From a virus (Duplodnaviria; Heunggongvirae; Uroviricota; Caudoviricetes), in the IMG/VR virus record IMGVR_UViG_3300032116_000094, positions 1 through 64,000 of that record: a stretch of DNA of 64,000 nucleotides, one strand, 5' to 3'. Under the pieces are notes generated by a model that was not told the origin of the DNA, searched no databases, and saw only the letters and a program-made list of their open reading frames with translations. This document shows positions 13,619-63,998 of this stretch, piece after piece (position 1 is the stretch's first letter; every line of letters begins with the position of its first letter). The position numbers were made by a program, and so were the translations under genes.

Positions 13619-14086
13619 TTATCGCTGAGTAAAAAAGTCTTTCAGGTCGACGGATTCTTGCTTCTCTGTACGAATAATGGCCACATCATAATTTTGTCCG
13701 TCAATAGCAAAAGTAATTACTTCTGTAGCGATATTGGCCAACGGTGATGTTTCAATGTCGCTATCTCTAGGAATCATTAGAACCGTAGTATTGTCCATAA
13801 CTTCGTCATCAGAATTAAGATATATAATCCTTCCTCCGCATGACGTGGGCGTCATAAGACCATCCATAACATGCATCCACATCGGCATACCTTTTATATG
13901 CTTATCATTATACATGTATGTGCGTTCCATTCTCCAGGGAAACATAAAAATATCTGGATCATCAGGAGTCTCATATAGATAGCTTGCATGAAGCATTACG
14001 TTAGAGTCACCAATTCTGATAATGTATTCATCATAATTGGTTTTTACTTTTTTGTTAGGTTCAAGGTCTGTGTATCTGGCAATCAT
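13619..14086 (-). CDS. Family-5 paralog (C-terminal-domain-only version)
   Basis: ORF. RYTDLEPN..TSCGG shared with 14875..15711 (RYTDLTPN..LKCGG) and 17240..17971. Confidence 0.5.
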   Translation of the reverse strand: MIARYTDLEPNKKVKTNYDEYIIRIGDSNVMLHASYLYETPDDPDIFMFPWRMERTYMYNDKHIKGMPMWMHVMDGLMTPTSCGGRIIYLNSDDEVMDNTTVLMIPRDSDIETSPLANIATEVITFAIDGQNYDVAIIRTEKQESVDLKDFFTQR

Positions 14087-14092
14087 TTTATT

Positions 14093-14854
14093 TTATGTTA
14101 AAATGGTGAAATCAAGATTTGAATTAGACAATATTGAAAATGTTGACACATTGGATCTTGTACATATTAATTTTCTTGTTTGTGATAAGGCAAAAACACT
14201 GAAAACAAGTTCTTTAATATGTTCTTCTATCAAGATTTGTGGGTTCTTTTTGCTAAAGAAAACCATAGAGTCTTCTGATGCTGTCCTATCGAAAAACAAA
14301 AGTTTTTCACCATATCGTTGTTTAAATTTGAAATACTCATTTTTAGAATCGGTTGCCAAAAATATATGATCAAACTCTTCCGCTTCAATAGCCTCAAATA
14401 TTTTATTAATATGAACTATAGGATGATGTAAAGTAATATCTGTCGTTCGGTAATGAACACCAATTGTTTTGCTTAAATCATAATTAATAAAACGATTATA
14501 CAATAATTTTTTAATATCACCATTTATTATATAATGCTTCGCTATTATCTGCTCTGTTTTTAATCTTAAATCATTGTCAAAATATGTTTGATATGTGTTG
14601 ATACCTGGCTGATAATACTCGATGTTCTCATACTTGTTATTTTTGTAGTCATCATGATCTTGTTTCTCAAACGCTACATCAAACATATTCCCCGAACCGT
14701 ACCCTGGCATATCCCACAAATCAAAATATAGTATTAAGTCTGAATTATAACCTTTATGATCATAATAAGTTACTAAGTTACCAACAGCTTCAGTTAAATA
14801 TGAGAAATAACCTCTGCGTGTCTCTTTTGCTCTAGCTGGTTTATAAAAACGCAT
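14093..14854 (-). CDS. Putative glycosyltransferase (fucosyltransferase-like)
   Basis: ORF 253 aa. VGVHYRTTD (HxRxxD) and FLATDS motifs resemble motifs I/II of GT11/GT23 fucosyltransferases. Weak. Confidence 0.35.
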   Translation of the reverse strand: MRFYKPARAKETRRGYFSYLTEAVGNLVTYYDHKGYNSDLILYFDLWDMPGYGSGNMFDVAFEKQDHDDYKNNKYENIEYYQPGINTYQTYFDNDLRLKTEQIIAKHYIINGDIKKLLYNRFINYDLSKTIGVHYRTTDITLHHPIVHINKIFEAIEAEEFDHIFLATDSKNEYFKFKQRYGEKLLFFDRTASEDSMVFFSKKNPQILIEEHIKELVFSVFALSQTRKLICTRSNVSTFSILSNSNLDFTILT

Positions 14855-14874
14855 TTTCTTATTTTTTTTATTTT

Positions 14875-15711
14875 TTATTCGAAAAGCTGATTAAGCTCAA
14901 TCGACGTTTTATCTTCAGGAGATACTATGCAACATTCATAAGTCGCACTTCCTAAGTTAAATAGTTTAACATTATGTGACAAGCTTTGAAGAACCATAGG
15001 TGTTTTGTCATTTTTGGGATAATAATTATGTGCAACATATAATGTATGTTGCGTCACATGTTGATTTAGATCTGTTATATCGAACAGAATGCCACCACAT
15101 TTAAGGTTTGTTAATGTACCAGTCAATGTATACATATGAATAGGCATTTCGTCCCTATAATACTTACTACCAACGTGTGTTGATGTTCTTACAACAGTAT
15201 ATGGTAGTCTTTTAATATCTAATTCAAACTCTGGCCCAATTAACTGTTTAGGGTATAACTTAATAACAATATTAGTGGTACCCAACCTAATAACAATAGC
15301 GTCATTTGCTGCTTTAACAAGTGTATTTGGCGTTAAATCCGTATACCGCATTTTTTTTGGCTCAGTAATTTCTGCCGGATTAACTTCAATGAATGTTAAA
15401 TTACTAACATCAACAGAAAACGATCTACCACCTGGGAATACAAGCTTAAACTCCATATCACGGATATGTTCTACACATAACGCAACATCGTGGCGTGTAA
15501 CACCATCAATAATTCCATTTATATGATAGTGCTTACCAACCTCAGGCATCTTAAGTTCAGAATATGTAAGGCTGGATAGTGGAACAAAGTAATGCATCCC
15601 CATTTGATATAAACTAACATGGGTCCTATAAACAGCTAAGCAATGAACTCTAAGCCCGGTCAAAGCTCCGCCGGTATCTGTTTTTATAAGATAAAATTTT
15701 CCTGCTTCCAT
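14875..15711 (-). CDS. Family-5 paralog (278 aa)
   Basis: ORF. TAtcTTTG box at 15718-15725 immediately upstream. Paralogous to 17240..17971 and 13619..14086. Confidence 0.6.
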   Translation of the reverse strand: MEAGKFYLIKTDTGGALTGLRVHCLAVYRTHVSLYQMGMHYFVPLSSLTYSELKMPEVGKHYHINGIIDGVTRHDVALCVEHIRDMEFKLVFPGGRSFSVDVSNLTFIEVNPAEITEPKKMRYTDLTPNTLVKAANDAIVIRLGTTNIVIKLYPKQLIGPEFELDIKRLPYTVVRTSTHVGSKYYRDEMPIHMYTLTGTLTNLKCGGILFDITDLNQHVTQHTLYVAHNYYPKNDKTPMVLQSLSHNVKLFNLGSATYECCIVSPEDKTSIELNQLFE

Positions 15712-15791
15712 GCAACAAAGATAAGACTATTATATGAAATTATAAAAAGTTTTTTTTTAAATTCTAGATATTTATTGTTAAAATAATAGTT

Positions 15792-16202
15792 ATGAAAAGA
15801 ACTATAAGGTTGACTGAAGATGATTTAACCAGGATTGTTAAAAAAGTAATTAATGAACAAAAAAACTTAGACGAGGCTTTTATTCGTAGTATATTCACTT
15901 CAGAAAATGATGAAATGTTAGAAAATATCTTTAAAATTATCAAAGATAATTTTAATCTAGATGATTTATCTCTATATCCTAATGGATATATGTATGAATA
16001 CAGAATTTTTGGAGGTTCTGCTGGAGTTTTAAGGGTGGTGAATGCTTGGTTATCTTTACCCCCAGACAGTAACATGATTGTATTATTAGATGGTAAGGAG
16101 ATTCGTTGCTCGTATATAATGGCCAGAAAAATATGGAATTTCTTTAAATCAAAATCAATTATTAAACCTATTAATAAGCCCAAAAGGATCGTAAAAAAAT
16201 GA
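15792..16202 (+). CDS. RLTEDDL N-module protein (136 aa)
   Basis: ORF. N-term MKRTIRLTEDDLTRIVKKVINEQKNLDEAF shared with 16262, 16752, 27016. Confidence 0.65.
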   Translation: MKRTIRLTEDDLTRIVKKVINEQKNLDEAFIRSIFTSENDEMLENIFKIIKDNFNLDDLSLYPNGYMYEYRIFGGSAGVLRVVNAWLSLPPDSNMIVLLDGKEIRCSYIMARKIWNFFKSKSIIKPINKPKRIVKK

Positions 16203-16230
16203 ACAATCGCCAATGATTGTGTTTTTTTTT
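16203..16230 (+). terminator. Rho-independent terminator
   Basis: ACAATC-gccaat-GATTGT hairpin followed by T9, directly after the stop at 16202. Confidence 0.6.
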
Positions 16231-16261
16231 ATTATAGATATTTATTATTAAAAAAATAATT

Positions 16262-16642
16262 ATGAAAAGAATTATAAGATTGACTGAAGATGATTTAACA
16301 AAAATTGTTAAAAAAGTCATTAATGAACAAAAAAAGTTAGACGAGGCTTTTTTTGATAAAAAAATAACTTCAGATGAGGATAAAAAATTAAGTGAGATAT
16401 TAGATTATATTGAAAACACATTTAATCCTAAAAATCTATCTGTAAAATCTAATTATTCTATCATCAAGTATAGGCTCCATGACGAAACATATTTAGAGAT
16501 TGAAGATACATCTATACCTGTTTTACTTATGAATAGTTTAATTGTTAGGTATGATAATAAAGTAATTGATTGCTCTTACAGCATGGCTAAAAAAATATGG
16601 AAATTCTTAGTCAAGAAATTTGATGAAATGGAAAATAACTAA
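16262..16642 (+). CDS. RLTEDDL N-module protein (126 aa)
   Basis: ORF. MKRIIRLTEDDLTKIVKKVINEQKKLDEAFF. C-terminal region ..CSYSMAKKIWKF similar to 15792 (CSYIMARKIWNF). Confidence 0.65.
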   Translation: MKRIIRLTEDDLTKIVKKVINEQKKLDEAFFDKKITSDEDKKLSEILDYIENTFNPKNLSVKSNYSIIKYRLHDETYLEIEDTSIPVLLMNSLIVRYDNKVIDCSYSMAKKIWKFLVKKFDEMENN

Positions 16643-16665
16643 TAACTATGTCCCCCACATAAAAA

Positions 16666-16697
16666 TGCACAATCGCCAATGATTGTGCATTTTTTTA
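16666..16697. terminator. Bidirectional rho-independent terminator (shares hairpin core with 16203-16230)
   Basis: TGCACAATC-gccaat-GATTGTGCA followed by T7. Lies between convergent genes. Confidence 0.6.
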
Positions 16698-16751
16698 TTG
16701 TATGATAATTATTGATTATCTTTTTTAAGAAATAAATTATGAAGTTTAAGG

Positions 16752-17150
16752 TTAACTTACGACTTCGAAAGCGTCTGCGTGATTATAGTGAAGCTGTACA
16801 AGATCTTCATATCTAGGCTTATATCCAGCTTTTTGATTCTTTTTTATATATTCTGGATGCGTGGTATCTTGACTATATAGAGCCTCTTTGTTTAGAGGCC
16901 TTAACTTCATCACGTTTCCGTCCATTCTCACAAACTCATACATTTCTCTTCCGTCTTTTATTACTTCTCCATCATCATCTACTCTCCATTTACGTTTTAT
17001 CTTTGTACCCGGTTCAAACGGAGGATTTTTCTTGTTTTTTCCTCCATATATACGATAATAATCCGTATGTTTTGATTTTTTTTCTTCGCTAATAATTCGT
17101 TTAACAATCCTTGTTAAATCATCTTCAGTTAGTCTTATAATTTTTTTCAT
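16752..17150 (-). CDS. RLTEDDL N-module protein (132 aa)
   Basis: ORF. MKKIIRLTEDDLTRIVKRIISEEKK. Confidence 0.65.
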   Translation of the reverse strand: MKKIIRLTEDDLTRIVKRIISEEKKSKHTDYYRIYGGKNKKNPPFEPGTKIKRKWRVDDDGEVIKDGREMYEFVRMDGNVMKLRPLNKEALYSQDTTHPEYIKKNQKAGYKPRYEDLVQLHYNHADAFEVVS

Positions 17151-17239
17151 AATTATTATTTTTAATAATAAATATCTTGATAAAAAAAAAACTACAATAA
17201 TTTACGGTTGTGCATTTTTTTTATCTACAAACCTCACAG

Positions 17240-17971
17240 TTACTTAATCTGATCAATGTCAACAATCTCAGAAAGATTAATCGCATCTGTATAATCACTT
17301 CTAAAAAGGCCTAGTGTAAAATTATCATTACCGATTTGTACTTTATTATAATGGTTTACAAGATCACCAAAATAATTAAGATCGCAATTAACGTCAGCAT
17401 CTAGCAATAATAATGTATAATCATCATCCGGATTACCTAGATATACATGAAATAACTTCGCCCCACAGGTTGTATATTTCAAGCTGCCTTTAGCATGAAG
17501 ACTCCAAGCGGGCATTTTATCAGCGTCGTAATAATCCTCAGGCAAAATAGATGATGTCCGAATAGGGCTAAACGGTAGACGATACTGTATCTTATCATTT
17601 TCATGACCATAGAGCATGTCAAACCAAAGAATCAAATTGGTATTACCAAATCGATACAAATAACCTTTCTTATTCTTGATAATCTTATTACCATGAATTT
17701 GCCCATATTCTAGCGGTTTTGGCTTCGCGTCATAGGTATACGACCACGTATATGCCGTGAACGCAGGTCCTTCAACTGTAGGTGTTGGTTCCGGTGTTGC
17801 TGGCGGCAAATTTACTTTATTGTATGTAATAGTTGATAGATCTATATCATAAGATACAACACCACATCTTAGAGTGCAAGTATTGTCGTTAACCTCAACA
17901 CAAAACACAAGTTTATTAGTGAGAAAATTGTGTGTGTGATTTGTTATATAATAATAGTTTCCAGCTACCAT
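17240..17971 (-). CDS. Family-5 paralog (243 aa)
   Basis: ORF. N-term MVAGNYYYI like MEAGKFYLI of 14875. C-term TTCGAKLF. Confidence 0.6.
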   Translation of the reverse strand: MVAGNYYYITNHTHNFLTNKLVFCVEVNDNTCTLRCGVVSYDIDLSTITYNKVNLPPATPEPTPTVEGPAFTAYTWSYTYDAKPKPLEYGQIHGNKIIKNKKGYLYRFGNTNLILWFDMLYGHENDKIQYRLPFSPIRTSSILPEDYYDADKMPAWSLHAKGSLKYTTCGAKLFHVYLGNPDDDYTLLLLDADVNCDLNYFGDLVNHYNKVQIGNDNFTLGLFRSDYTDAINLSEIVDIDQIK

Positions 17972-17991
17972 GATATTTTTTTGAAATATGT

Positions 17992-18378
17992 TTAATTTGT
18001 AAAAGATTCATCAACCCACCAATAATCACCATTGTCAATATCTATCAGATATATGTAACATTTATACTCTTCAGTATAACGGACTTCGACAATCTTACAA
18101 TCTTTTCCGAGATATTCCTCAATTCCTGTATTATCGTTTCGTCGATATAATATATGTGTTCTTAGAAGGCTACATATATTTTCTTTAGTTCTAACGCTGT
18201 CACCAACTGAATGTTGTGACGGAACACCGTCACAATGTGTAAGTAATTTTTCACTCATATAACCTGAGTTTTTAATTATATTAACAGAAAAAAAGATTAT
18301 TATAAATGTGAGAATTATACCAAGAATAACTATAATCTCCAGATATAGTTCTGTTAGTTCAAATCTCTTTAGTTTCAT
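17992..18378 (-). CDS. Hypothetical membrane-anchored protein (128 aa)
   Basis: ORF. N-terminal hydrophobic segment. TAtcTTTG box at 18386-18393 (leader ~8 nt). Confidence 0.5.
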   Translation of the reverse strand: MKLKRFELTELYLEIIVILGIILTFIIIFFSVNIIKNSGYMSEKLLTHCDGVPSQHSVGDSVRTKENICSLLRTHILYRRNDNTGIEEYLGKDCKIVEVRYTEEYKCYIYLIDIDNGDYWWVDESFTN

Positions 18379-18460
18379 GCTACAAAGATAATACGTTTAT
18401 TTAATCCATGCAAGTTTTTTTTTCTTTCCACTGAAATTTTCTATCCGTATTGCATTTTTA

Positions 18461-18883
18461 TCATTCGAAATTATATTTTACCTGGATGAAATCTTCATAT
18501 TCTAATCCGTGATCTTGACAAATCTCTTTAATACTTTCAAGATTTTTATTGATTTTATTCAATACTTTGTTAAATTTCTTGTTTGCTTCAACTAGTTCAT
18601 AAATTTCATCTTCTATAGAAGTACTATTATTAGTACTATCCCAGATCTCATGATATAAATAATTATCTCCGTCACCAACTTTAGCAAAAAATTGAATGAT
18701 CACACAATCATCTTCTTCTGTTTCCAAATCATATTCAACTTGAATATAACAGGGAAGCGAAGATACGAAAACTTCGTACACACAACCAATATTATCTGTA
18801 TCCAACAAATTAAATCGTGTCTTAGATGATTTAAGACATGATTCAATTTGTTCTTGAACATCATATTTTAACACTTCAGCCAT
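18461..18883 (-). CDS. Hypothetical acidic protein (140 aa)
   Basis: ORF. Acidic composition. Confidence 0.5.
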   Translation of the reverse strand: MAEVLKYDVQEQIESCLKSSKTRFNLLDTDNIGCVYEVFVSSLPCYIQVEYDLETEEDDCVIIQFFAKVGDGDNYLYHEIWDSTNNSTSIEDEIYELVEANKKFNKVLNKINKNLESIKEICQDHGLEYEDFIQVKYNFE

Positions 18884-18920
18884 TTTTTTAAAAATGTTAA
18901 GTTAATTGAGTAAAAGATTG

Positions 18921-18999
18921 TGACCAGGACAGGATTCGAACCTGTAAAACCAATGCAGTCTGTCTTATATGGTACGTCTGCCAATTCCGCCACCTGACC
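18921..18999 (-). tRNA. tRNA (identity unresolved; 5' half near-identical to tRNA at 13433-13563)
   Basis: GGTCAGG-TGGCGGAATTGGCAGACG... ACAGGTTCGAATCCTGT-CCTGGTC-A. Acceptor pairs with two G-U. Anticodon arm does not fold canonically by eye (possible small insertion). Confidence 0.45.
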
Positions 19000-19153
19000 A
19001 ATAAATAAATAATGCTCGATACGTTTCCGTAAGACCCGTGTATTCCTCAGCTCGTTTTGAGCCTCATTCGAGAGTAACTGATGCCTTTTGCGCTTTAAAG
19101 AATTCGGGACCTTCAGCAAACTTAATAGTTTGGTCTCCTACTTCATTATTATT

Positions 19154-19375
19154 TTATTTTGGGTTTTTATCTTTCTCAGATAATTTATCCTCCAGAATCG
19201 AAATATTCGTGTTAACTACTGATACAATCAAACCACATAAGCAACCTGTAAAGCAAAATGCATAAAAATACACATCTTTACCCTGCCCGATTTTTACCAA
19301 TGAGAAGAACATTACAAGATTGTAAAGCAGACCTTCAATAATTTTTAGCATTTTTTTTTGTTTTTTTTTGTTCAA
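19154..19375 (-). CDS. Small hydrophobic protein (73 aa)
   Basis: ORF with TM-like segment. Preceded by a structured leader and promoter at 19380-19525. Confidence 0.4.
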   Translation of the reverse strand: MNKKKQKKMLKIIEGLLYNLVMFFSLVKIGQGKDVYFYAFCFTGCLCGLIVSVVNTNISILEDKLSEKDKNPK

Positions 19376-19418
19376 CGATTAGGCTGTTTTCCGGCGGTCA
19401 CATTTAACCCCACTTACA

Positions 19419-19470
19419 CACCCCCTAGCGGAAGTGCGGGATTCGAACCCTATTGTGAAGCACCCCATCA
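19419..19470 (-). ncRNA. tRNA 3'-half-like element (T-arm GGGTTCGAATCCC nested in a GTGC/GCAC stem) within a 5' leader
   Basis: Minus strand GGGGTGC-TTCACAA-TAGGGTTCGAATCCC-GCACTTCC. No matching acceptor 5' strand or D/anticodon arms found. Confidence 0.3.
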
Positions 19471-19477
19471 CCCTTTA

Positions 19478-19525
19478 TTTAACACTGCAAAGATATATCC
19501 TTTATTTGATACTAGCAAATATTTT
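19478..19525 (-). promoter_or_regulatory. Bacteroidetes-type promoter (copy 1 of extended promoter family)
   Basis: Minus strand AAAAAATATTTGCTAGTATCAAATAAAGGATATATCTTTGCAGTG. TTTG then 19 nt then TAtcTTTG. Confidence 0.5.
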
Positions 19526-19729
19526 TTCAAGTTTAAACAAAAAATACAAATAACAAACACAATAACAATATAAATGCTATAAAAACAAACACATTCTCAA
19601 ATTCCTTTTGATATTTCTCATATACACTAATAGGTAATGCCATTGCAAAAAGCAAAATGAAAATTTCAATAAAAATGAAAATGAACAATAATGAGCAAGT
19701 ATTTTGGAAATTAAACATGATTGTTGGTT

Positions 19730-20131
19730 TTAAATTGAATTAATAATAGTTTCGATCCTTTCGTTAATCCGATTGAGTTTTTCACCGTAAGATTTGATCT
19801 TAGGATCATCATTAGCTTCTTTGGTTCTGGCAATATGCTTCTCAAGATCAATGTACTGATACGCTCTAGACCATTCATAGTGCTTCTGAATCCTGTCCTC
19901 CAAGATAGACTTTGCAATACTTAGCTCATTAAGTGACATCATTCCAAGCGAATGCCCAGGTTTATTCTCAGCAAACAAGCCATCATTCATAGCATATAGT
20001 TTATCATAAATATTCGACTTCTCAATGCCATATGCCATCAAGGCATTAATTATTAGAGACGATTCATCAGGTGTAAACATGTTATTGATTTTTTTTAAGA
20101 GAAAACATAAATTGCAATAAGAATAAAACAC
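19730..20131 (-). CDS. Hypothetical protein (133 aa)
   Basis: ORF. Confidence 0.5.
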   Translation of the reverse strand: MFYSYCNLCFLLKKINNMFTPDESSLIINALMAYGIEKSNIYDKLYAMNDGLFAENKPGHSLGMMSLNELSIAKSILEDRIQKHYEWSRAYQYIDLEKHIARTKEANDDPKIKSYGEKLNRINERIETIINSI

Positions 20132-20292
20132 GTATCAATCGTAGAGTCCAAAAACGCTTCTGTAGTTTTTTTACCCTTATCTTTCGCCATTAAGTAAGCG
20201 AACAAAATTATAAATAAAATTACTGCATCACTAAAAATTTCAGTCTTGATCATGATGTGATTTTTTTTAGATAACGCAACACGCGATTACCT

Positions 20293-20342
20293 TTGTTTGA
20301 TACTGCAAAGATATAACCATTATTTGAGACTACCAAATATTT
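20293..20342 (-). promoter_or_regulatory. Bacteroidetes-type promoter (copy 2, ~85% identical to 19478-19525)
   Basis: Minus strand AAAAATATTTGGTAGTCTCAAATAATGGTTATATCTTTGCAGTATC. Upstream of an unlisted ~51-aa ORF starting near 20254. Confidence 0.5.
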
Positions 20343-20346
20343 TTTT

Positions 20347-20913
20347 CTACGATTCAATTATCTCTAACAAATAATCACAAGAATTAGATAAATTATGCGA
20401 TAATTCATATTGTTTACCCATAATATAACCAAGCAAATCTTCTAATCGATCATCATATCCATCATATAAATTTTCCGCATCAATACTCAGCTCATCTATC
20501 TTTTTAAGATACAACTCAAGATCTTTTAAAACCTGCCTCTGAAAACTATCTATAAAGCTTACTAGCCTATAATCAGGCTGCAAATTATCCATAATTACAT
20601 TAATAGTCTCTTTTATCTTAACTATCTCACCCCGCAAAAAAGACGCATACCCGGCGTTTAATATTTTTCTATTAAAAGAGTCCTCCCGATTACTCACAAT
20701 GTCATCATCAACAAAATCATAATTAACATCTCTAACTATGAGATTGTTTTTATTGATGAACTCTAATATAGAGTTTGTTATAAAATATAATTTATATGCC
20801 GCTTTCTTAAGCGAACTAAGACTTTCTTCTTGCTCAAATATGACATTTTTAACTATATTGTTAAGCTGGGTTTCTGTTATTATTAACTTATTCATAATAA
20901 TATATATACTCAC
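20347..20913 (-). CDS. Hypothetical protein (188 aa), N-terminus weakly RLTE-module-like
   Basis: ORF. N-term ..LIITETQLNNIVKNVIFEQEE. Confidence 0.5.
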   Translation of the reverse strand: MSIYIIMNKLIITETQLNNIVKNVIFEQEESLSSLKKAAYKLYFITNSILEFINKNNLIVRDVNYDFVDDDIVSNREDSFNRKILNAGYASFLRGEIVKIKETINVIMDNLQPDYRLVSFIDSFQRQVLKDLELYLKKIDELSIDAENLYDGYDDRLEDLLGYIMGKQYELSHNLSNSCDYLLEIIES

Positions 20914-20964
20914 GCATAAAAAAAATGGGTCACGAAACTAATTCGTGACCCAAATAAAACTTAA

Positions 20965-21843
20965 CTACTTAATAAGTCCCCCCGGTAGCATAATACCGGT
21001 ATTCCCACTAAGAGAAGTTTGAGGAAGTGCCCCATCCCACTTGTCAATAAACATCGACTGGATAACCAAAGGAGATAGGGTTTGTTGTTTAAGACGCCTA
21101 GCTTCAGAATCAGCTTTCGCCGTGATAAGCATCGCCTCAGCATCCGCTTTAGCCGTAGCCAACTTTACAGCCGCTTGAGCATTCGCCTTCTCAACCTCAG
21201 CCTTGGCCGCATAAACCGTTTGCAAAGCTTCGTTCTTAGCCTGGTTGGTCCTTAGAATGCTCGATGGAGGCGTTACTCCTGTGACAAAATTATCAAGCAC
21301 AAAACCTACCCGCTTAAACCCAATACGAACAGAATCCTCCAGCATCCTCTGAACCCGAACCTTGTCATCCATCATAATAGTGTCCTTCAGTGACCCAATA
21401 ATTTCAGTAAATGAATTACGAATGATCGGAGTTAGAATGTACTGACCTACAGAACTCAAAAACTTGTCGTCTTCACCACTAGCCAAAAAAGAGTTATACC
21501 TGTGACAAATTCGAACAGCTTGCTCCCGATCAATCGAAAACGTGAATTGCGGATCTACTGTCCATTCACCATTTTCTTTCGATAGAACAACCGATTTTTC
21601 GAGGTCGATACTATACGATTGACTAGGAATCACGAATGACCTTGTGAGTGGAGAGAAGTCAACCGGAAAATATCCGGTCCAGACCTGATAATCTGATTCA
21701 CCATTCATACCCCCATTTGTCATCCATACACCAACTTGGTTGGGTTTGACGTAGGTTCGCATGATGAGGTTGAGTACCAGATACGAAAGAAGAATCACCC
21801 CGACCACAATGGCCGAGTACTTTACTGTGTTGCTTTTAAACAT
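20965..21843 (-). CDS. SPFH/band-7 (stomatin/prohibitin/HflKC-like) membrane protein
   Basis: ORF 292 aa. N-terminal TM segment. Ala-rich coiled coil AKAEVEKANAQAAVKLATAKADAEAML typical of SPFH proteins. Promoter TAccTTTG at ~21903-21914. Confidence 0.55.
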   Translation of the reverse strand: MFKSNTVKYSAIVVGVILLSYLVLNLIMRTYVKPNQVGVWMTNGGMNGESDYQVWTGYFPVDFSPLTRSFVIPSQSYSIDLEKSVVLSKENGEWTVDPQFTFSIDREQAVRICHRYNSFLASGEDDKFLSSVGQYILTPIIRNSFTEIIGSLKDTIMMDDKVRVQRMLEDSVRIGFKRVGFVLDNFVTGVTPPSSILRTNQAKNEALQTVYAAKAEVEKANAQAAVKLATAKADAEAMLITAKADSEARRLKQQTLSPLVIQSMFIDKWDGALPQTSLSGNTGIMLPGGLIK

Positions 21844-21928
21844 ATGATTTGAGTTTGTTTAGAAAAAAAAGATATCGAGATTTTGCTCTCGTTTTTTGAT
21901 ACCGCAAAGGTATGTATTTTATTTCTAA

Positions 21929-23347: not shown

Positions 23348-23565
23348 AAAATATGTGAATATTATATGTAATAAATATTCACATATTTTAATTTATCTAG
23401 TTGTTGATTTTACGCGAGTATTTAATTTGCATTCTTGTGCAGAAGCAAATGTAATGAAAGGACCATCTCACACGGACAAGCCCAACAGTAGCGATACAAA
23501 TAATCGACTCAAAGAGCTCAACAAATGCAAGCCCAAAACTGGTAACTAAGAAGTTACTCCAAAAT

Positions 23566-23868: not shown

Positions 23869-23883
23869 GTCTTTTTTTTTCTT

Positions 23884-24313: not shown

Positions 24314-24326
24314 GTGTTTTATTATT

Positions 24327-26425: not shown

Positions 26426-26436
26426 ACATTTAAATA

Positions 26437-53324: not shown

Positions 53325-53371
53325 CACCTAAATAATCAATTAAATTTTACTGGTGACAAATAATAACACGC

Positions 53372-54752: not shown

Positions 54753-54974
54753 TTATTTTGTTTCTTTTAATTTGTTAATCTTTCGAGAAAGATACCATAC
54801 AGCTTTCTCCAAATCTTCAATTTCTTTACTTGGATCTTTCTTGCCGGATCTAACTATGTATTTCAAAGCATTTCCATTGTGGAAGTCTAAATTGTAGTGT
54901 TCTATGATTTTAATTACTTCAAATGGATTGTCCGCACCCCCATAGTGCTCCGGGTGATCTACGTTTTTATTCAT
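54753..54974 (-). CDS. DUF3310-like phage-associated small protein
   Basis: ORF 73 aa. HPEHY..GNALKYIVRSGKK..DLEKAVWYL pattern typical of phage DUF3310 proteins. Confidence 0.5.
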   Translation of the reverse strand: MNKNVDHPEHYGGADNPFEVIKIIEHYNLDFHNGNALKYIVRSGKKDPSKEIEDLEKAVWYLSRKINKLKETK

Positions 54975-57417: not shown

Positions 57418-58137
57418 ATGAGATTATCAAATAACATAACAAAACAAACTATCGTTAATTTATTGGCTGAATATATCTTAAATGAATTAGGCCCAGACAC
57501 AGCAACTCAGATAACAGTCATAGATCAAGGTAATTTTTTCGTCATATTAGGATGTACTAACACAAAAAAGAGTTTAAAACTCACAGAAATATTTATTCAA
57601 TTTACCGATAAGTATTCAGATTTAATATCTGAAGCTAACTATCCAAAAGAACTAAGTTTTGTAAATTTTATTCGGGCATCTAATGAAGACGATTTAGTAA
57701 CTTCTTGCGAAATAAATCTATACAATACTGAAAGGCCTTCAATCAACACAATTTGCGTACCTGCCGGTTTGATCCCCATTCATACTCCAGATCTTTTGTC
57801 CTCCCAATTCCCACATGGTTATGGGTTAAAAACTAACAGAGCATTATTATTATACTTTGAATATATTGCATATAATATAATGGACGGCACAAACACATCT
57901 GAGATGTGTATTTCTTTTCATAAAGAAAATGAATTCGAAGATAAATTACAGGTCAAGTCTGTATCTCTTAGAGACAATGAAAAAATAAAGTCCGCAATAC
58001 TAGATTTATTCGATCTAGATTACACTAAATTTATTAGTGAATATAATTCATATGATTTTACAGGCGAGGTATTAAACCCCATGATGGAGAAACCCTGGTT
58101 GAAAAAAGAAATTGATACTATTGATCTATTAATCTAG
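57418..58137 (+). CDS. Hypothetical protein (239 aa)
   Basis: ORF. Confidence 0.55.
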   Translation: MRLSNNITKQTIVNLLAEYILNELGPDTATQITVIDQGNFFVILGCTNTKKSLKLTEIFIQFTDKYSDLISEANYPKELSFVNFIRASNEDDLVTSCEINLYNTERPSINTICVPAGLIPIHTPDLLSSQFPHGYGLKTNRALLLYFEYIAYNIMDGTNTSEMCISFHKENEFEDKLQVKSVSLRDNEKIKSAILDLFDLDYTKFISEYNSYDFTGEVLNPMMEKPWLKKEIDTIDLLI

Positions 58138-58422
58138 TATCAATTTCTTTTTTATTATTTCTATCCCTTCATCTATACCATGATAATGTTGATCCGGAGC
58201 ATATAGTTCGCTATCAAGATTACCTTTTTCGTCTGTCTTTATTATCATAAAAGATGGCACATATTCGTTCCCACCCACAGCCTCAACGAATAATTCGAAT
58301 TCATCCGGATAAAGATCAATATCTCTATCGTGAAAAGAGATATTATTCTCTGTCAACATATCTTTCATCATCGTGCAGTATGGACACGATTTCATTGTAA
58401 ATAAAACTAGTTCTCCCCCCAT
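58129..58422 (-). CDS. Glutaredoxin
   Basis: ORF 97 aa. CPYC active site after a beta-strand start (LVLFTMKSCPYCTMMK). Confidence 0.8.
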   Translation of the reverse strand: MGGELVLFTMKSCPYCTMMKDMLTENNISFHDRDIDLYPDEFELFVEAVGGNEYVPSFMIIKTDEKGNLDSELYAPDQHYHGIDEGIEIIKKKLILD

Positions 58423-58730
58423 ATTGTCGCCATTTTAGTTATTTCTTCTTTAGACGTTATTCCTATTTTAGATTTTACTTCTTTACCTGAGTAAAATCCT
58501 TTAATTACCGGAACACTTCTTATACCCAAAGACATTGATAATTCTATATCAGTATCTACATCAAAAGTATACAATTTAGTTTCGTTACCCTCATTCTCAA
58601 GTTTTTCCATAACTTCCTCAAAAACAGGTTTAAGAACTTTACATGGCCCACACCATTGAGCATAAAACTCAACAAGGATTTTTTTATCTGAGTTTAGTAA
58701 CTCTTTTAACTTATCAGGACTAATATCCAT
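58407..58730 (-). CDS. Thioredoxin
   Basis: ORF 107 aa. WCGPC active site (FYAQWCGPCKVLKP). 16-nt overlap with glutaredoxin gene. Confidence 0.85.
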   Translation of the reverse strand: MDISPDKLKELLNSDKKILVEFYAQWCGPCKVLKPVFEEVMEKLENEGNETKLYTFDVDTDIELSMSLGIRSVPVIKGFYSGKEVKSKIGITSKEEITKMATIWGEN

Positions 58731-59151: not shown

Positions 59152-59919
59152 TTATTGAAGATATTCTTCAGCCATCTTCCAAAGACCTGTATTAATATTG
59201 TTGATGAGTTTAATGTCTGTCAAAAATCGAACAGAAGTACGTCTCTGAGTTCCGGTGGAATATGTGATACCTCCGCGTACAAAGTTTTCCTGAAGTGTAT
59301 TAAATGTGTTCCAGAGATTAGGAACAACATCTTCATTCCTATTGGGCTTTACAAGTCTTTCAGGTGAAAGATTTTCAGGAATCCTTTCTTCTGGCCACCT
59401 TAGACTCATTGCTTTTCTAGCAAATTCATGTCGTTCATCATCAGTCATAATCCTTGACATCATTTCTTTGACATTTCCCTCAATCATTGGTAGCATTTCA
59501 GCGAAATTATCTGTAAGTTTTCGAACTTCAGATACATCGAAGTACTTGTGCTTCAAAGTAATTGTACCACTAAGTGATGTGGGCACTGTCAGACCATTAG
59601 AACAAGCCAGGCGGAAAAGACCAGCTTTAACTGAAAGAATGTTGCTACCATCATGTGAGTTAGATATTACAGCCTCAAACAGGCTATCACCAACAACTTT
59701 TGGAACACTTCCGTTCCTGAGCCTAATCTCATGCCTAGAATATTGGCCCCTACCAGTTTGTTTTGCACTAAAGATGTCCCATCCCTCAGCACTAAACTTC
59801 TCAAGAATATCTATTGTTGGGACGAAAACATACTTGCTCGAAAGCTTTGGCGATGGTGAGGTTGTGAAAATAGACGGAACGTTAGTTCTGAGTGTTTCAA
59901 ATTCAATTGGTGCTGCCAT
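59152..59919 (-). CDS. DUF932-like (phage/plasmid-like) protein; GC-richer than neighbours
   Basis: ORF 255 aa. ..AVISNSHDGSNILSVKAGLFRLACSNGL.. resembles the conserved core recalled for DUF932/TIGR03299 proteins. TAtcTTTG at ~59944-59951. Composition visibly less AT-rich. Confidence 0.4.
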   Translation of the reverse strand: MAAPIEFETLRTNVPSIFTTSPSPKLSSKYVFVPTIDILEKFSAEGWDIFSAKQTGRGQYSRHEIRLRNGSVPKVVGDSLFEAVISNSHDGSNILSVKAGLFRLACSNGLTVPTSLSGTITLKHKYFDVSEVRKLTDNFAEMLPMIEGNVKEMMSRIMTDDERHEFARKAMSLRWPEERIPENLSPERLVKPNRNEDVVPNLWNTFNTLQENFVRGGITYSTGTQRRTSVRFLTDIKLINNINTGLWKMAEEYLQ

Positions 59920-61026: not shown

Positions 61027-61671
61027 ATGGATAAAAAATACTCTGTAGTTGTTTTTAAAAACAAAAAACTAAGAAAAATATTAAAAAGGTTTAAGACTAA
61101 AGATGGTGCGAATAAATTTTATGAAAAGAAACTATCTGATAGCAATTCTATTATTTTTGATAAAAAAATAGAAAATGGAAGAGCGGTTTATTTTGAATTG
61201 GCATTAATTTCAAATGAAAAAAGTGATGACATTATATATAAATCAGATGACTTAGGTCGAAATATTCCTGTCATATCTGAAAATGACAATTTTTCTATAA
61301 AAAAAATTGCTGACTTTAAATTAATTGAAAAAATCCAAAAAATAAATAGCCAGGAAAAATTAACTCTAGTCCAAATTGTTAATTCATACCTCAAAGGTAA
61401 TTCAATTAAATTAATTTCCAAACTAAATAATAAAATTATTATCCAGGATGATGATTCTTTTATTCTATTTAGCTGTAAATCAAATGATGATGCTGATCGT
61501 TTTATTTCTACACTTGAAGATTACTTACTAAATACCAATAAAAAAAATGCAATACTAGTACGAGATACTGATATTGCACAAAAAAAATATTTGTATGATA
61601 TGTTTGAAAAACTAGGATATAGTAGAGATATGTTGTATAGAGTATCAACTACTCATTTAAAACAAAAATGA
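61027..61671 (+). CDS. Hypothetical protein (214 aa)
   Basis: ORF. Confidence 0.55.
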   Translation: MDKKYSVVVFKNKKLRKILKRFKTKDGANKFYEKKLSDSNSIIFDKKIENGRAVYFELALISNEKSDDIIYKSDDLGRNIPVISENDNFSIKKIADFKLIEKIQKINSQEKLTLVQIVNSYLKGNSIKLISKLNNKIIIQDDDSFILFSCKSNDDADRFISTLEDYLLNTNKKNAILVRDTDIAQKKYLYDMFEKLGYSRDMLYRVSTTHLKQK

Positions 61672-61873
61672 ATTCAATGTTAGATATAACAATTTTAAAC
61701 ATTTTATCTTCATTACCAATAACATTGGTAAGTTCATTAATAGTTGAATTAAAATCATCCTTTGACACTTCAAAAACAACTGTTTTATTACCGGTATATA
61801 GCTGATCCAGTCCTTCTGAGATTAAAGCTAATTTACCTAAAATCCCATCAAAACTTTTTTTATCTTTGTCCAT
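61649..61873 (-). CDS. Hypothetical protein (74 aa)
   Basis: ORF. Confidence 0.35.
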   Translation of the reverse strand: MDKDKKSFDGILGKLALISEGLDQLYTGNKTVVFEVSKDDFNSTINELTNVIGNEDKMFKIVISNIEFIFVLNE

Positions 61874-62025
61874 AAGGTATGTTGTTTAGGTTCTTCGTCC
61901 AAAATTTGTGATTTCTTCAATCCAGCCAAAGATTTTGCAAATTCTTGCTTTTCTTTTTCAAGCTCGGCTTGGTCTTTTTGTTTTTCACTGTTCAGCCAGT
62001 TCTGTAGTTTCTGTAATCTGCTCAT
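61837..62025 (-). CDS. Hypothetical small protein (62 aa)
   Basis: ORF. K/E-rich. Confidence 0.3.
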   Translation of the reverse strand: MSRLQKLQNWLNSEKQKDQAELEKEKQEFAKSLAGLKKSQILDEEPKQHTLWTKIKKVLMGF

Positions 62026-62410
62026 TGTTTATTTTTGTAGTATCTTTCTTTATATCAAAAGTTAGATTGTATAAATCGCTTATTGGGTATTTACTGAAAA
62101 AGGTATCCAGCTCATTTTTTTTCTGCACCAATAACAATTCTTTTGCTTCATTTTCCTTATTATATTGAATAAGACCTTTAATATTGTCAAATTGTGATTC
62201 CATTGATAAATCATTTAATTCACAAAAAAAAGAAAAAGTCCTGTAGCCTTCAGAAATTTGTTTCTGTTCTGCAACTGTTTCTTTGTCAACAAATTTCTTA
62301 ATGAGTTTCCATTTTTCCGGGAAAGAGACATCTATGCTCAAAAACTTATCCAATTTCCTTATAGAAATTAAATAAGGTAAAATTTGCTCTAAATTTTCAT
62401 ATAATTTCAT
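61985..62410 (-). CDS. Hypothetical protein (141 aa)
   Basis: ORF. Confidence 0.5.
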   Translation of the reverse strand: MKLYENLEQILPYLISIRKLDKFLSIDVSFPEKWKLIKKFVDKETVAEQKQISEGYRTFSFFCELNDLSMESQFDNIKGLIQYNKENEAKELLLVQKKNELDTFFSKYPISDLYNLTFDIKKDTTKINNEQITETTELAEQ

Positions 62411-62584
62411 TGCTAGTAAATAACGTAGGTTATTATGTATGATAACATCATACCATAGAAAATTAATTCTGTGTTTGTTAACTTAACATGTTTCGCCGGT
62501 GTACTAAGTATTGAAAATATAATGATAGCAAACAATCTTATAATTGCCAATATCGAAAAAACAAGTATGTAAAACAAACAAAGA

Positions 62585-62767
62585 TTAATCATTTTTATTC
62601 TTTCTTTCTTCTAAGATTGTTTTTCTTAATGCTAACATATCTTCCTTAATTTCAAGGGCAAGCTTCCTAGCTCTGGTTCCAGCACTATCATTACCTTGAC
62701 TAAACTTACGAAGTTCCATTGATATAGTCTCAGTTTTAGCTTTTAATTCATTAATAAATTTTTCCAT
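62585..62767 (-). CDS. Hypothetical small protein (60 aa)
   Basis: ORF. Confidence 0.35.
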   Translation of the reverse strand: MEKFINELKAKTETISMELRKFSQGNDSAGTRARKLALEIKEDMLALRKTILEERKNKND

Positions 62768-62804
62768 AATTAATTCTATTTAAATTTATGTTTATTGTAA
62801 AGAT

Positions 62805-63251
62805 TTATCTTATAATATTTTTGTCCAACAATTTATAAAATCTCAAACATAAGTCTAATTCATATTTGGTATGAGGCTTGTAGTGATCAAAAATGCCTGA
62901 GAAATACCGAATTATTTCATTTTTTAACTTGGCTTCATCATGAGAATAATAAATCTCTAAGAAAAGAGTTTTAAAATATTCATAATGCTCACCTTCTTCT
63001 CTGAAATAGATGTTTTCTTTCTTAAAATTTTGAATGGTATTGTTCCAGCACCATTTAAAATGGTTAATGTTATCGTTTAATGATGTCGTGATCCTTGTCT
63101 CAACAGGAACAGAGGTTCCTCCAAGATATGTTTTTTTTATTAGATTAGTAAGAGAGATTAAAAAATCTAAAAAAAGTTCACTTTTTTCTGGTATTAAGTT
63201 ATTAACGCTTAACCAGGTTTCGATATCTTCTTTAGTTATGTTTTTCGCCAT
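62805..63251 (-). CDS. Hypothetical protein (148 aa)
   Basis: ORF. Confidence 0.5.
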   Translation of the reverse strand: MAKNITKEDIETWLSVNNLIPEKSELFLDFLISLTNLIKKTYLGGTSVPVETRITTSLNDNINHFKWCWNNTIQNFKKENIYFREEGEHYEYFKTLFLEIYYSHDEAKLKNEIIRYFSGIFDHYKPHTKYELDLCLRFYKLLDKNIIR

Positions 63252-63317
63252 TTAAAAAAAAATTCCATAGATAAGTCTATGGAATTAATATAATAAAAAA
63301 AATAATTAAATTAAATA

Positions 63318-63998
63318 CTATTGTGTTGGTTTTGTGTAATTTGTTAAAACATTAATTCTATTGAACTCTTCATGTAATATTGTCTTTTCAGACTCATTTT
63401 TAGATTCTAACTTAGCTAATATATCCTGAGATGTCTTTTTAGTTTTAGCTTTACCTAAAGCACCCTTAGGCCCTAATTTACTACCAGCATAATCTATAGG
63501 TGTAGGATATCTTTTATATGACGCATTTTTTTGTTCCTGGCCGTAATAGTTGTTTTTATAATTTTTCATCATTCTCTCACCCAATTCACTTTCAACCGCA
63601 TTTGCATATTTTTGAGAATTACCTGATTTAGCATCACCTTTTAAATATCTCGCTATTCTCTCATCATCAAAATGTATTTCATCTGGTATTAAATTTGTCA
63701 TACCAGGATGTGAAAATGCGTCAACATATTCATCAACAGCATCTGAAGGGATATAGGCTTTCTTATCCATTTTAGCTAATTCACCATTACCCTTTGGAAA
63801 TCCTTTAGGGTTTGGATCAAATTTACCTTTAGATCCATCTTTAAGGTACTCATTCATTTTTTTAGCAACATCCTTAATAGCCTGGTTGTTTTCCTGCTTA
63901 GATTTTTTTAAAACTTTCTCTGTCTCAGCTAAACCTTTTGCTTTTTTTTGCTCAGAAACAATATTATATATCAAAAATCTAAGTTCAGATTCTGTCAT
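63318..63998 (-). CDS. Hypothetical protein (226 aa) with RLTE-module-like N-terminus
   Basis: ORF. N-term MTESELRFLIYNIVSEQKK. Start ATG at 63998, just inside the window. Confidence 0.5.
   Translation of the reverse strand: MTESELRFLIYNIVSEQKKAKGLAETEKVLKKSKQENNQAIKDVAKKMNEYLKDGSKGKFDPNPKGFPKGNGELAKMDKKAYIPSDAVDEYVDAFSHPGMTNLIPDEIHFDDERIARYLKGDAKSGNSQKYANAVESELGERMMKNYKNNYYGQEQKNASYKRYPTPIDYAGSKLGPKGALGKAKTKKTSQDILAKLESKNESEKTILHEEFNRINVLTNYTKPTQ

What the first reader, a model, noticed from the sequence alone, without database searches (positions are those of the whole stretch)
13619..63998. Gene content suggests a large phage or prophage-like accessory region of an AT-rich Bacteroidetes host
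ThyX-like, NUDIX, thioredoxin plus glutaredoxin, metallophosphoesterase, SLT transglycosylase, M15-type peptidase, DUF3310-, DUF932- and DUF192-like genes and an AsnA-like aaRS core co-occur with tRNA genes. Small overlapping genes are tightly packed on both strands. Dozens of unrecognisable ORFs accompany them. There are no ribosomal or central-metabolism genes in 64 kb. This set is typical of large (jumbo) phages rather than of a bacterial core chromosome. Paralog expansions of this size are rare in phages, which makes the region interesting whichever way it resolves.
Basis: inference. Interest (0 to 1): 0.6.

Follow-up and report, generated by a model that had tools for sequence, protein, structure and literature searches.

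The report
Jumbo Bacteroidota phage with giant paralog arrays
The region is part of the genome of an uncultured giant (at least 277 kb) virus of Bacteroidota bacteria, which is ordinary as a kind of thing, but nearly half of the 122 kb examined consists of tandem copies of its own private gene families (52 and 33 copies), more than a 2021 survey of jumbo phages reports.

Summary
Profile searches confirm ThyX, NUDIX, thioredoxin, glutaredoxin, metallophosphoesterase, SLT, DUF3310, DUF932, DUF192 and a class II aaRS-like core. The M15 peptidase rests on a motif only. There is one normal tRNA (Met) plus one aberrant tRNA-like gene.

The window joins at 100% identity to an IMG/VR viral contig on its left and to metagenome contigs on its right. 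Marker genes about 108 kb apart, on either side of it, both list a 277,584-bp longest contig. Syntenic relatives are 233-295 kb IMG/VR viral genomes. No relative turned up in 185,579 bacterial genomes, in plasmids or among isolated phages.

The flanks carry SbcCD, primase, an RpoD-like sigma factor, amidase, holin, ClpP-like protease and a 19-21 tRNA island. No cellular core genes were seen. No capsid, portal or terminase gene was found in the roughly 150 kb I could reach.

A Bacteroidota host is independently supported. Only 1 of 132 genes has a Shine-Dalgarno-like motif, positions -14 to -11 are A-rich, and TTTG-N18-21-TAnnTTTG promoters are enriched.

Extras: a full-length GOLLD RNA lies behind tRNA-Met. 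Tandem families A (52 copies, no known fold match) and E (33 copies) are exceptionally large.

The parts
190..13125 (+). Family A tandem array. There are 38 copies in the window and 52 in the genome. Each is about 105 aa: a conserved 100-aa core plus a variable C-terminal tail.
13433..13563 (-). Aberrant tRNA-like gene. It has a 33-38 nt insertion that extends the anticodon stem, a long variable arm, and its own promoter at 13575-13604(-).
   Evidence: Rfam tRNA 42.5 bits. Fold. ARAGORN -i calls it Val(aac) plus an intron. Its identity is unresolved.
13619..17971 (-). Family D paralogs (13619-14086, 14875-15711, 17240-17971) interspersed with small ORFs. Two of those ORFs carry the shared N-terminal motif MKxIIRLTEDDL (16262-16642 on the + strand, 16752-17150 on the - strand).
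20965..21843 (-). SPFH/Band 7 membrane-scaffold protein.
   Evidence: PF01145 4.3e-7. phrog_200 6.1e-33.
21929..23347 (-). 472-aa protein with about 15 C-terminal repeats of a GTWHNGxF-like 8-mer. Function unknown.
   Evidence: Sequence read. No Pfam hit. A relative at 46% identity over a partial stretch lies in a 152-kb IMG/VR contig.
27937..34433 (+). The + strand island. It holds family C paralogs (four certain at 27937-30235, and possibly 31079-31567, 32192-32665, 32669-33100 and 33969-34433).
31562..32137 (-). Putative LAS/M15-type zinc peptidase, supported by motifs only.
   Evidence: SxHxxGxAxD and HxH read directly in the sequence. No profile or PDB sequence hit.
34872..35696 (-). Stand-alone class II aaRS-like catalytic core with no anticodon-binding domain. 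It belongs to a phage gene family.
   Evidence: PF00152 4.5e-8. phrog_29758 2.9e-98. It is 55-56% identical to the 'tRNA ligase' of Prochlorococcus phages P-SSM2, P-SSM5 and P-SSM7, and 46-50% identical to huge phages LR756501 and LR756508. It scores 17.7 bits against the AsnA equivalog cut-off of 389.
35743..45127 (-). Family B tandem array: ten ORFs of about 300 aa. Eight are linked by HMM. The ORFs at 42326-43255 and 44168-45127 are linked only by shared invariant residues in the alignment.
45502..45939 (-). DUF5856 protein, annotated in PHROGs as a starvation-inducible (Dps-like) regulator.
   Evidence: PF19174 2.6e-23. phrog_858 4.7e-28.
45973..46662 (-). ThyX, the flavin-dependent thymidylate synthase.
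47806..48414 (-). Calcineurin-like metallophosphoesterase.
49707..50551 (-). GOLLD RNA. The conserved 3' domain is at 49707-50134. The ORF-free stretch 50135-50551 is presumed to be the variable 5' domain.
   Evidence: RF02032 231.5 bits against a gathering score of 150, model positions 1-416 of 416. The 5' stretch is 70% identical at nucleotide level to huge phage LR745206.1.
50552..50623 (-). tRNA-Met (CAT), immediately upstream of GOLLD.
51315..52511 (-). 398-aa beta-propeller/WD40-like protein.
   Evidence: Weak WD40 hits. phrog_19311 1.4e-8.
52508..52921 (-). NUDIX hydrolase.
52980..53971 (+). DUF192 protein (52980-53324) and SLT lytic transglycosylase with an N-terminal transmembrane segment (53372-53971).
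54753..54974 (-). DUF3310 protein. PHROGs labels this family 'nucleotide kinase'.
58129..58730 (-). Overlapping thioredoxin (58407-58730) and glutaredoxin (58129-58422) pair.
   Evidence: The pair is conserved in a 257-kb relative.
59152..59919 (-). DUF932 protein.
   Evidence: PF06067 1.9e-23. phrog_12094 2.3e-41.
61027..63998 (-). Block conserved in all relatives. It includes an Hc1-like 60-aa protein at 62585-62767.
   Evidence: 35-55% amino-acid identity, in the same order, in L016-L023. Hc1 comes from the precomputed Pfam table.
13575..33139 (.). Cluster of Bacteroidetes-type promoters (TTTG-N18-21-TA(T/C)CTTTG), 4-60 nt upstream of start codons. Examples: 13575-13604(-), 19488-19519(-), 20306-20337(-), 23888-23919(-), 26026-26057(-), 27608-27639(-), 30895-30926(-), 33109-33139(+). 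Others lie at 59945-59977(-) and 61392-61422(-).

Best explanation
The whole window, 13619-63998 included, is a stretch of the genome of an uncultured jumbo tailed phage of at least about 277 kb that infects a member of the Bacteroidota. It is not integrated in a chromosome.

The stretch is the phage's accessory or host-takeover region.

Shown:
- The genes are read mainly leftward (74 of 93).
- At least a dozen carry promoters with the Bacteroidetes primary-sigma consensus (-33 TTTG, -7 TAnnTTTG).
- Their start sites lack Shine-Dalgarno sequences and have adenine-rich -14..-11 stretches.
- Recognisable products: dTMP synthesis (ThyX), nucleotide-pool hydrolysis (NUDIX, metallophosphoesterase), redox carriers (thioredoxin, glutaredoxin), a Dps-like DUF5856 protein, an SPFH membrane scaffold, cell-wall enzymes (SLT, probable LAS peptidase), a phage-type aaRS-like ligase, DUF932 and DUF3310.
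- There is a tRNA-Met-GOLLD RNA unit.
- The rest is dominated by lineage-restricted gene families amplified in tandem.

Inferred:
- Those promoters are recognised by unmodified host RNA polymerase, so this is early expression.
- The start sites are tuned to translation by Bacteroidota ribosomes.
- The tandem families grew by unequal recombination and are kept as diversifying proteins that interact with the host or its defences.
For: Same genome as a viral contig: window 1-389 equals the end of IMGVR_UViG_3300031963_000042 (103,208 bp) at 100% identity.

Size:
- An LRR gene about 37 kb left of the window (P0207) and a 778-aa member (P0127) of the >=90%-identity cluster of the SbcC gene about 6 kb to its right both list a 277,584-bp longest contig.
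- Window protein 62805-63251 occurs on contigs in the 0.2-1 Mb class.

Relatives:
- SbcC is 53-58% identical in IMG/VR contigs of 232,874, 256,029 and 294,914 bp.
- The order of genes 61027-63998 is conserved in relatives.
- The series Hc1 - Trx - Grx - DUF3310 - DUF192 - NUDIX is conserved in a 257,166-bp contig.

Phage-type flanks:
- SbcC/SbcD (phrog_77 8e-44), RpoD-like sigma factor (phrog_351 1e-50) and Amidase_2.
- DnaG-type primase, exonuclease and a RuvC-like protein.
- Phage_holin_10, HNH and a ClpP-like protease.
- 19-21 tRNAs within 6 kb.

Other phage signals:
- GOLLD at 231.5 bits behind tRNA-Met. GOLLD is known from phages and prophages near tRNAs (PMC12286853).
- The aaRS-like gene belongs to phage family phrog_29758.

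Not found elsewhere: no relative in GTDB genomes, plasmids or isolated phages at DNA level.

Host:
- 1 of 132 genes has an SD-like 4-mer, against a 5.9% background. Positions -14..-11 are 63-71% A.
- The bipartite promoter occurs 14 times against 3.6 expected, with 0 of 100 shuffles reaching 14. The sites are mostly intergenic and correctly oriented.
- Both features are described as Bacteroidetes hallmarks in PMC6847099.
- The best ClpP and GOLLD 5'-region matches are to huge phages of 634 kb and above and to Lak phages. These are predicted to infect Bacteroidetes (PMC7162821).
Against: No major capsid, portal, terminase or tail gene was identified in the window or in about 90 kb of flanks and relatives' flanks.

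Membership in IMG/VR is an automated call, not proof.

The ClpP-like protein matches 'head maturation protease' PHROGs (4.7e-34). Its closest database relatives, however, are annotated as ordinary ClpP, so it is not a clean structural marker.

That the two markers sit on the same 277,584-bp contig is inferred from identical 'longest contig' values. It was not seen directly.

Some flank genes are also common in giant viruses of eukaryotes: SET domain, FkbM methyltransferases, caspase-like protease, LRR.

No CRISPR spacer or co-occurrence evidence for the host was available.
Confidence: 0.85

Rival explanations
1. It is a prophage or genomic island integrated in the chromosome of an AT-rich Bacteroidota bacterium.
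For: The Bacteroidetes-type promoters and SD-less start sites would also fit host DNA. No virion genes were seen in the sequence reached.
Against: About 58 kb on the left and about 30 kb on the right contain no cellular core gene, integrase or att-like junction. Two scans of 185,579 species genomes found no close relative. Contigs and relatives of 233-295 kb are filed as viral in IMG/VR. A 19-21 tRNA island together with GOLLD is typical of large lytic phages.
Confidence: 0.05
2. It is a jumbo phage whose host is not Bacteroidota, for example an AT-rich freshwater alphaproteobacterium or a cyanobacterium.
For: The aaRS-like gene is 55% identical to those of Prochlorococcus myophages. The best isolate match to SbcC is a Microcystis phage at 27%. 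A GC content of 28-32% also fits other streamlined aquatic bacteria.
Against: The -33/-7 TTTG/TAnnTTTG promoter is specific to the Bacteroidetes primary sigma factor. It is enriched fourfold and correctly placed. Shine-Dalgarno motifs are below background. The gene matches to cyanophages are single shared accessory genes, not synteny.
Confidence: 0.07
3. It is a giant virus of a eukaryote (Nucleocytoviricota) or another non-phage large element such as a megaplasmid.
For: The genome is AT-rich and has very large tandem multigene families. Flanks and relatives carry SET domain, FkbM methyltransferases, a caspase-like protease and LRR proteins.
Against: It carries a bacterial RpoD-like sigma factor, DnaG-type primase, SbcCD, peptidoglycan hydrolases (SLT, Amidase_2), a phage holin, GOLLD and bacterial-type promoters. 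There was no plasmid match. No replication, partition or conjugation genes were seen.
Confidence: 0.03

Closest known systems
Freshwater Bacteroidetes-infecting huge phages of 293-331 kb ('bS21 phages', Chen et al. 2022, PMC9723584)
   Same: Genome size class, GC content (their phages 31-34%, their outgroup 27%), about 91-95% coding density, 5-25 tRNAs, standard genetic code and predicted Bacteroidetes hosts. The window's genome is at least 277 kb, 28-32% GC and 91% coding, with at least 20 tRNAs.
   Different: No sequence comparison was possible. No bS21, capsid or terminase gene was seen in the parts I reached. The IMG ids of my relatives are not in their held supplements. Membership is therefore untested.
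Mahaphage-clade huge phages (LR745206, LR756501-4, Lak phages; Al-Shayeb et al. 2020, PMC7162821)
   Same: ClpP-like protein is 39-55% identical, the aaRS-like core 50% identical, and the GOLLD 5' region 70% identical at nucleotide level. [quoted passage not shown]
   Different: Those genomes are 540-735 kb. SbcC is only 25-29% identical. The clade is defined by terminase and capsid trees, which I could not test.
T4-like cyanomyophages P-SSM2, P-SSM5 and P-SSM7
   Same: They share the stand-alone aaRS-like 'tRNA ligase' (55-56% identity).
   Different: No DNA similarity and no synteny. The promoter and translation signals differ. No gp23-type capsid gene was seen here.
Lineage-specific expansion in Bacillus phage G (about 35 zinc-ribbon copies), called 'unprecedented' in a survey of 224 jumbo phages (PMC7824862)
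   Same: One small protein family is massively amplified within a single jumbo phage genome.
   Different: This genome has two larger or comparable families (52 and 33 copies) in strict tandem arrays, plus families of 8-10, 4 and 4 copies. Family A has a confidently predicted fold with no PDB match, rather than a zinc ribbon.
GOLLD env-38 RNA (PMC12286853)
   Same: A GOLLD directly downstream of a tRNA-Met in an environmental sequence. The 3' domain matches the full model.
   Different: No sequence comparison with env-38 was made. The nanocage assembly shown for env-38 is not tested for this copy.

Membership tests
Jumbo tailed phage (Caudoviricetes, genome above 200 kb) | Genome longer than 200 kb | tested here: met
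   Markers on both sides of the window each list a 277,584-bp longest contig. A window protein occurs on 0.2-1 Mb-class contigs. Relatives are 233-295 kb. That both markers share one contig is inferred.
Jumbo tailed phage (Caudoviricetes, genome above 200 kb) | Virion hallmark genes: HK97-fold capsid, portal, large terminase | tested here: inconclusive
   None was found in the window or in about 90 kb of flanks and relatives' flanks. More than half of the genome could not be reached. One small window protein hit a PHROG labelled 'portal protein' (5e-10) and was not identified.
Jumbo tailed phage (Caudoviricetes, genome above 200 kb) | Called viral by an independent pipeline, and free of cellular core genes | tested here: met
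   There is a 100% overlap with an IMG/VR contig. No core genes appear in the Pfam tables of the flanks.
Phage of Bacteroidota | Genes lack Shine-Dalgarno sequences and have adenines at -14..-11 | tested here: met
   1 of 132 genes has an SD-like 4-mer against a 5.9% background. Adenine is 63-71% at -14..-11. Criteria come from PMC6847099.
Phage of Bacteroidota | Promoters with -33 TTTG and -7 TAnnTTTG | tested here: met
   14 observed against 3.6 expected, with 0 of 100 shuffles as high. They sit upstream of genes in the right orientation.
Phage of Bacteroidota | Direct host link (CRISPR spacer, Hi-C, isolation) | not testable with these tools
   No spacer database or sample data were available.
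Prophage or chromosomal island | Flanking host genes, an integrase, or presence in bacterial genomes | tested here: not met
   No host genes or integrase were seen within about 58 kb on the left and about 30 kb on the right. No close relative exists in 185,579 species genomes.
GOLLD RNA (Rfam RF02032) | Covariance-model score above the gathering threshold over the whole model, next to a tRNA | tested here: met
   231.5 bits against 150, model positions 1-416 of 416. The tRNA-Met lies 417 nt upstream.
ThyX | Equivalog model score above the cut-off | tested here: met
   TIGR02170 scored 95.2 against 87.9.
Asparagine synthetase A or asparaginyl-tRNA synthetase | Match to the AsnA equivalog, or a full aaRS with an anticodon-binding domain | tested here: not met
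   NF005055 scored 17.7 bits against a cut-off of 389. The protein is 274 aa and covers only the catalytic core. It is a member of phage family phrog_29758.
Peptidase M15 (LAS zinc peptidases) | Profile match and the zinc-ligand motifs | tested here: inconclusive
   The motifs SxHxxGxAxD and HxH are present. There was no Pfam, PHROG, NCBIfam or PDB sequence match.

The most novel reading that the evidence does not exclude
This phage lineage carries the largest tandem multigene families yet described in a bacteriophage: 52 copies of family A and 33 of family E, with 46% of a 122-kb stretch made of paralogs. The families are lineage-restricted, and the one modelled confidently (family A) has no known fold match. 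They would be a phage counterpart of the 'genomic accordion' multigene families of poxviruses, ASFV and giant viruses. They would be amplified by unequal recombination and diversify under conflict with host defences, or to extend host range.
Probability: 0.3. Interest if true: 0.75.

Novelty: new member of a known kind. Interest (0 to 1): 0.5.

Why it matters
As a classification the result is ordinary. The window is an accessory region of an uncultured jumbo phage of Bacteroidota, a kind already known from lake and gut metagenomes.

It matters for three side reasons:

1. It shows that host phylum can be read directly from promoter and translation-start signals in a phage fragment.
2. It places a complete GOLLD RNA, a nanocage-forming RNA of unknown function, in a defined jumbo-phage context with conserved neighbours. 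That gives a system in which its role could be studied.
3. The tandem families exceed the expansion that a survey of 224 jumbo phages called unprecedented. This suggests that gene amplification, well known in large eukaryotic viruses, can also shape phage genomes on a large scale.

Tried and rejected
DNA similarity. Megablast of 44 kb of the window found nothing against 50,697 phage records, and megablast of 19 kb found nothing against 72,556 plasmids.

Hunt for capsid, portal and terminase genes. I walked outwards with all 8 viral-contig scans, 2 metagenome scans (both empty), 3 protein searches and 6 contig look-ups.
- The left walk met further paralog arrays, ORFans, a caspase-like protease, LRR proteins, ClpP, HNH, a holin and a tRNA island.
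- The right walk met recombination and replication genes, a sigma factor, sugar and methyl transferases, a SET domain and three unassignable 730-770 aa proteins.
- tblastn of five large flank proteins against isolated phages gave nothing useful.

Unresolved PHROG hit. One window protein matched a PHROG labelled 'portal protein' (5e-10). It is not any of the proteins above 400 aa, so it is unlikely to be a real portal.

M15 peptidase. No profile or PDB sequence hit was obtained.

Links to published work. I could not link my IMG ids to the published bS21 phage set. I could not establish the sampling environment from the literature.

Considered and rejected:
- Recoded stop codons. All three stops are used.
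- Assembly artefact as the source of the arrays. The arrays are 100% identical in independent assemblies.

Full report
**What is in the sequence.** The window is 28-36% GC. A greedy ORF call gives 132 genes. Of these, 93 lie in 13619-63998, with a median of 141 aa, 91% coding density and 27 overlaps; 74 are on the - strand. All three stop codons are used.

- ThyX
- a calcineurin-like phosphoesterase
- NUDIX
- DUF192
- SLT
- DUF3310
- glutaredoxin and thioredoxin
- DUF932
- a class II aaRS catalytic core

They also add an SPFH/Band 7 protein and a DUF5856 (Dps-like) protein.

The supposed M15 peptidase (31562-32137) has the SxHxxGxAxD and HxH zinc-ligand motifs. No Pfam, PHROG, NCBIfam or PDB sequence match supports it.

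ARAGORN finds a single tRNA (Met). Rfam adds a 131-nt tRNA-like gene at 13433-13563(-), whose anticodon loop carries a 33-38 nt insertion that folds as an extension of the stem. ARAGORN in intron mode calls it Val(aac), whereas I read it as Ser-like. Its identity is open.

**An unexpected RNA.** Rfam finds a full-length GOLLD RNA at 49707-50134(-), scoring 231.5 bits against a gathering score of 150 and matching model positions 1-416 of 416. It lies 417 ORF-free bases downstream of tRNA-Met. GOLLD is described as encoded in phages and prophages, often near tRNAs. The env-38 example that forms a 14-mer nanocage also lies downstream of a tRNA-Met (PMC12286853).

**Where the window comes from.**
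- Window proteins occur on many metagenome contigs, some in the 0.2-1 Mb class.
- Window 52805-64000 is 100% identical to an 89-kb ENA contig, and window 1-10516 to a JGI contig.
- Window 1-389 is 100% identical to the end of IMGVR_UViG_3300031963_000042, which is 103,208 bp. That contig continues the genome to the left.
- An LRR gene about 37 kb left of the window and the >=90%-identity cluster of the SbcC gene about 6 kb to its right (member P0127) each list a 277,584-bp longest contig. I infer, but did not see, that this is one contig.
- SbcC relatives at 53-58% identity lie on IMG/VR contigs of 232,874, 256,029 and 294,914 bp.
- The order of window genes 61027-63998 is conserved in relatives at 35-55% identity.
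- A 257-kb relative keeps the series Amidase_2 - Hc1 - Trx - Grx - DUF3310 - DUF192 - NUDIX.
- Nothing similar exists in 185,579 species genomes, in plasmids or, at DNA level, in isolated phages.

**Flanks.**

To the right:
- an Hc1-like protein, Amidase_2, an RpoD-like sigma factor and an SbcC/SbcD pair
- then an exonuclease, a DnaG-type primase and a RuvC-like resolvase
- in relatives, three unassignable proteins of about 750 aa, a SET domain, FkbM methyltransferases and an acetyltransferase

To the left:
- more paralog arrays, ORFans, a caspase-like protease and LRR proteins
- then a ClpP-like protease, an HNH endonuclease, a Phage_holin_10 protein and 19-21 tRNA genes within 6 kb

The ClpP-like protein is most similar to those of huge phages of 634 kb and above and of Lak phages. 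No cellular core gene and no integrase appear anywhere.

I did not find a capsid, portal or terminase gene in about 150 kb.

**Host.** Two intrinsic signals point to Bacteroidota.

First, only 1 of 132 genes has a GGAG/GAGG/AGGA motif at -20..-4, against 5.9% at random positions. Positions -14..-11 are 63-71% adenine.

Second, the bipartite motif TTTG-N18-21-TAnnTTTG occurs 14 times against 3.6 expected, and 0 of 100 shuffles reach 14. The sites sit 4-60 nt upstream of start codons in the right orientation, usually as TA(T/C)CTTTG behind an A-tract.

Baez et al. (PMC6847099) describe exactly these features as characteristic of the phylum: no SD, adenines at -14 to -11, and -33/-7 TTTG/TANNTTTG with no G at the NN positions.

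The shared genes with huge phages predicted to infect Bacteroidetes (PMC7162821) agree with this.

The promoters cluster in 13.5-34 kb, so I infer that this part is transcribed early by host polymerase.

**Paralog families.** I joined the left contig and the window into one 122-kb sequence.
- An HMM finds 52 family A genes: 8 inverted plus 44 direct, 38 of them in the window.
- Family E has 33 genes of about 150 aa.
- Family B has 8 HMM-linked genes (35743-44156); the alignment suggests two more, extending the array to 45127.
- Families C and D have 4 genes each.

Together these make up 46% of the stretch.

Family B also has no fold assignment.

A survey of 224 jumbo phages called a roughly 35-copy expansion in Bacillus phage G unprecedented (PMC7824862).

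**The aaRS-like gene.** It is not AsnA (17.7 bits against a cut-off of 389) and it lacks an anticodon-binding domain. It belongs to phage family phrog_29758 (2.9e-98). It is 55-56% identical to the 'tRNA ligase' of Prochlorococcus phages P-SSM2, P-SSM5 and P-SSM7, and 46-50% identical to genes of huge phages.

**Verdict.** 'Prophage or island' is disfavoured.

The entity is a new, undescribed member of a known kind. The closest described groups are the freshwater Bacteroidetes huge phages of Chen et al. 2022 and the Mahaphage clade, but membership in either could not be tested.

The most interesting content is not the phage identity. It is the scale of the tandem families and the GOLLD-tRNA-Met unit.

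Noticed in passing
window 49707-50623 (-): A full-length GOLLD RNA (RF02032, 231.5 bits) lies directly downstream of tRNA-Met. Between them is a 417-nt ORF-free presumed 5' domain that is 70% identical at nucleotide level to the 634-kb uncultured phage LR745206.1. The layout is the same as published for GOLLD env-38.
   Followed up: partly
window 13433-13604 (-): A tRNA-like gene (Rfam 42.5 bits) has a 33-38 nt insertion in the anticodon loop that folds as an extended stem. It also has a long variable arm and its own Bacteroidetes-type promoter. Default ARAGORN misses it, intron mode calls it Val(aac), and I read it as Ser-like. It could be a short tRNA intron or a tRNA-like decoy.
   Followed up: partly
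window 190-13125 (+), continuing to about -5.9 kb on L026/L030: Family A has 52 tandem copies (8 inverted, 44 direct) of a protein of about 105 aa. The predicted fold is confident (pLDDT 89), with no PDB match and almost no homologues outside this lineage. Median dN/dS is 0.57. Several assemblies break inside this array.
   Followed up: yes
L030 8235-19637 and L031 (about -7.8 to -25.7 kb left of the window): A second tandem array, family E, has 33 copies of a protein of about 150 aa with no family assignment.
   Followed up: partly
L039 14932-20660 (about 52-58 kb left of the window): A tRNA island of 19-21 genes covers most amino acids. It sits next to a ClpP-like protease, an HNH endonuclease and a Phage_holin_10 gene.
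   Followed up: partly
window 16262-16642(+), 16752-17150(-), 27016-27555(-); also 20347-20913(-) and two genes on the left flank: Otherwise unrelated proteins share an N-terminal helix motif, MKKIIRLTE(S/D)(D/E)LxxIVKxVIxE. It could be a common targeting or assembly tag.
   Followed up: no
window 21929-23347 (-): A 472-aa protein ends in about 15 consecutive 8-residue repeats of the type GTWHNGxF. It has no Pfam assignment. Its central domain recurs at 46% identity in an unrelated 152-kb IMG/VR contig (L008).
   Followed up: no
L001 4243-5043 (about 5 kb right of the window): The phage encodes its own RpoD-like sigma factor with regions 2-4 (NF004208 1.6e-56). It lies next to SbcCD. It may redirect host polymerase away from the host-type promoters seen in the window.
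   Followed up: no
L032 12573-13316 and 18791-20656; L025 5182-5571: The same genome, or close relatives, carry a caspase-like Peptidase_C14, two LRR paralogues of about 620-650 aa and a SET-domain protein. These gene types are more familiar from giant viruses of eukaryotes.
   Followed up: no
window, unidentified small ORF: A pooled PHROG scan reported one window protein matching phrog_15528, labelled 'portal protein' (5e-10).
   Followed up: partly
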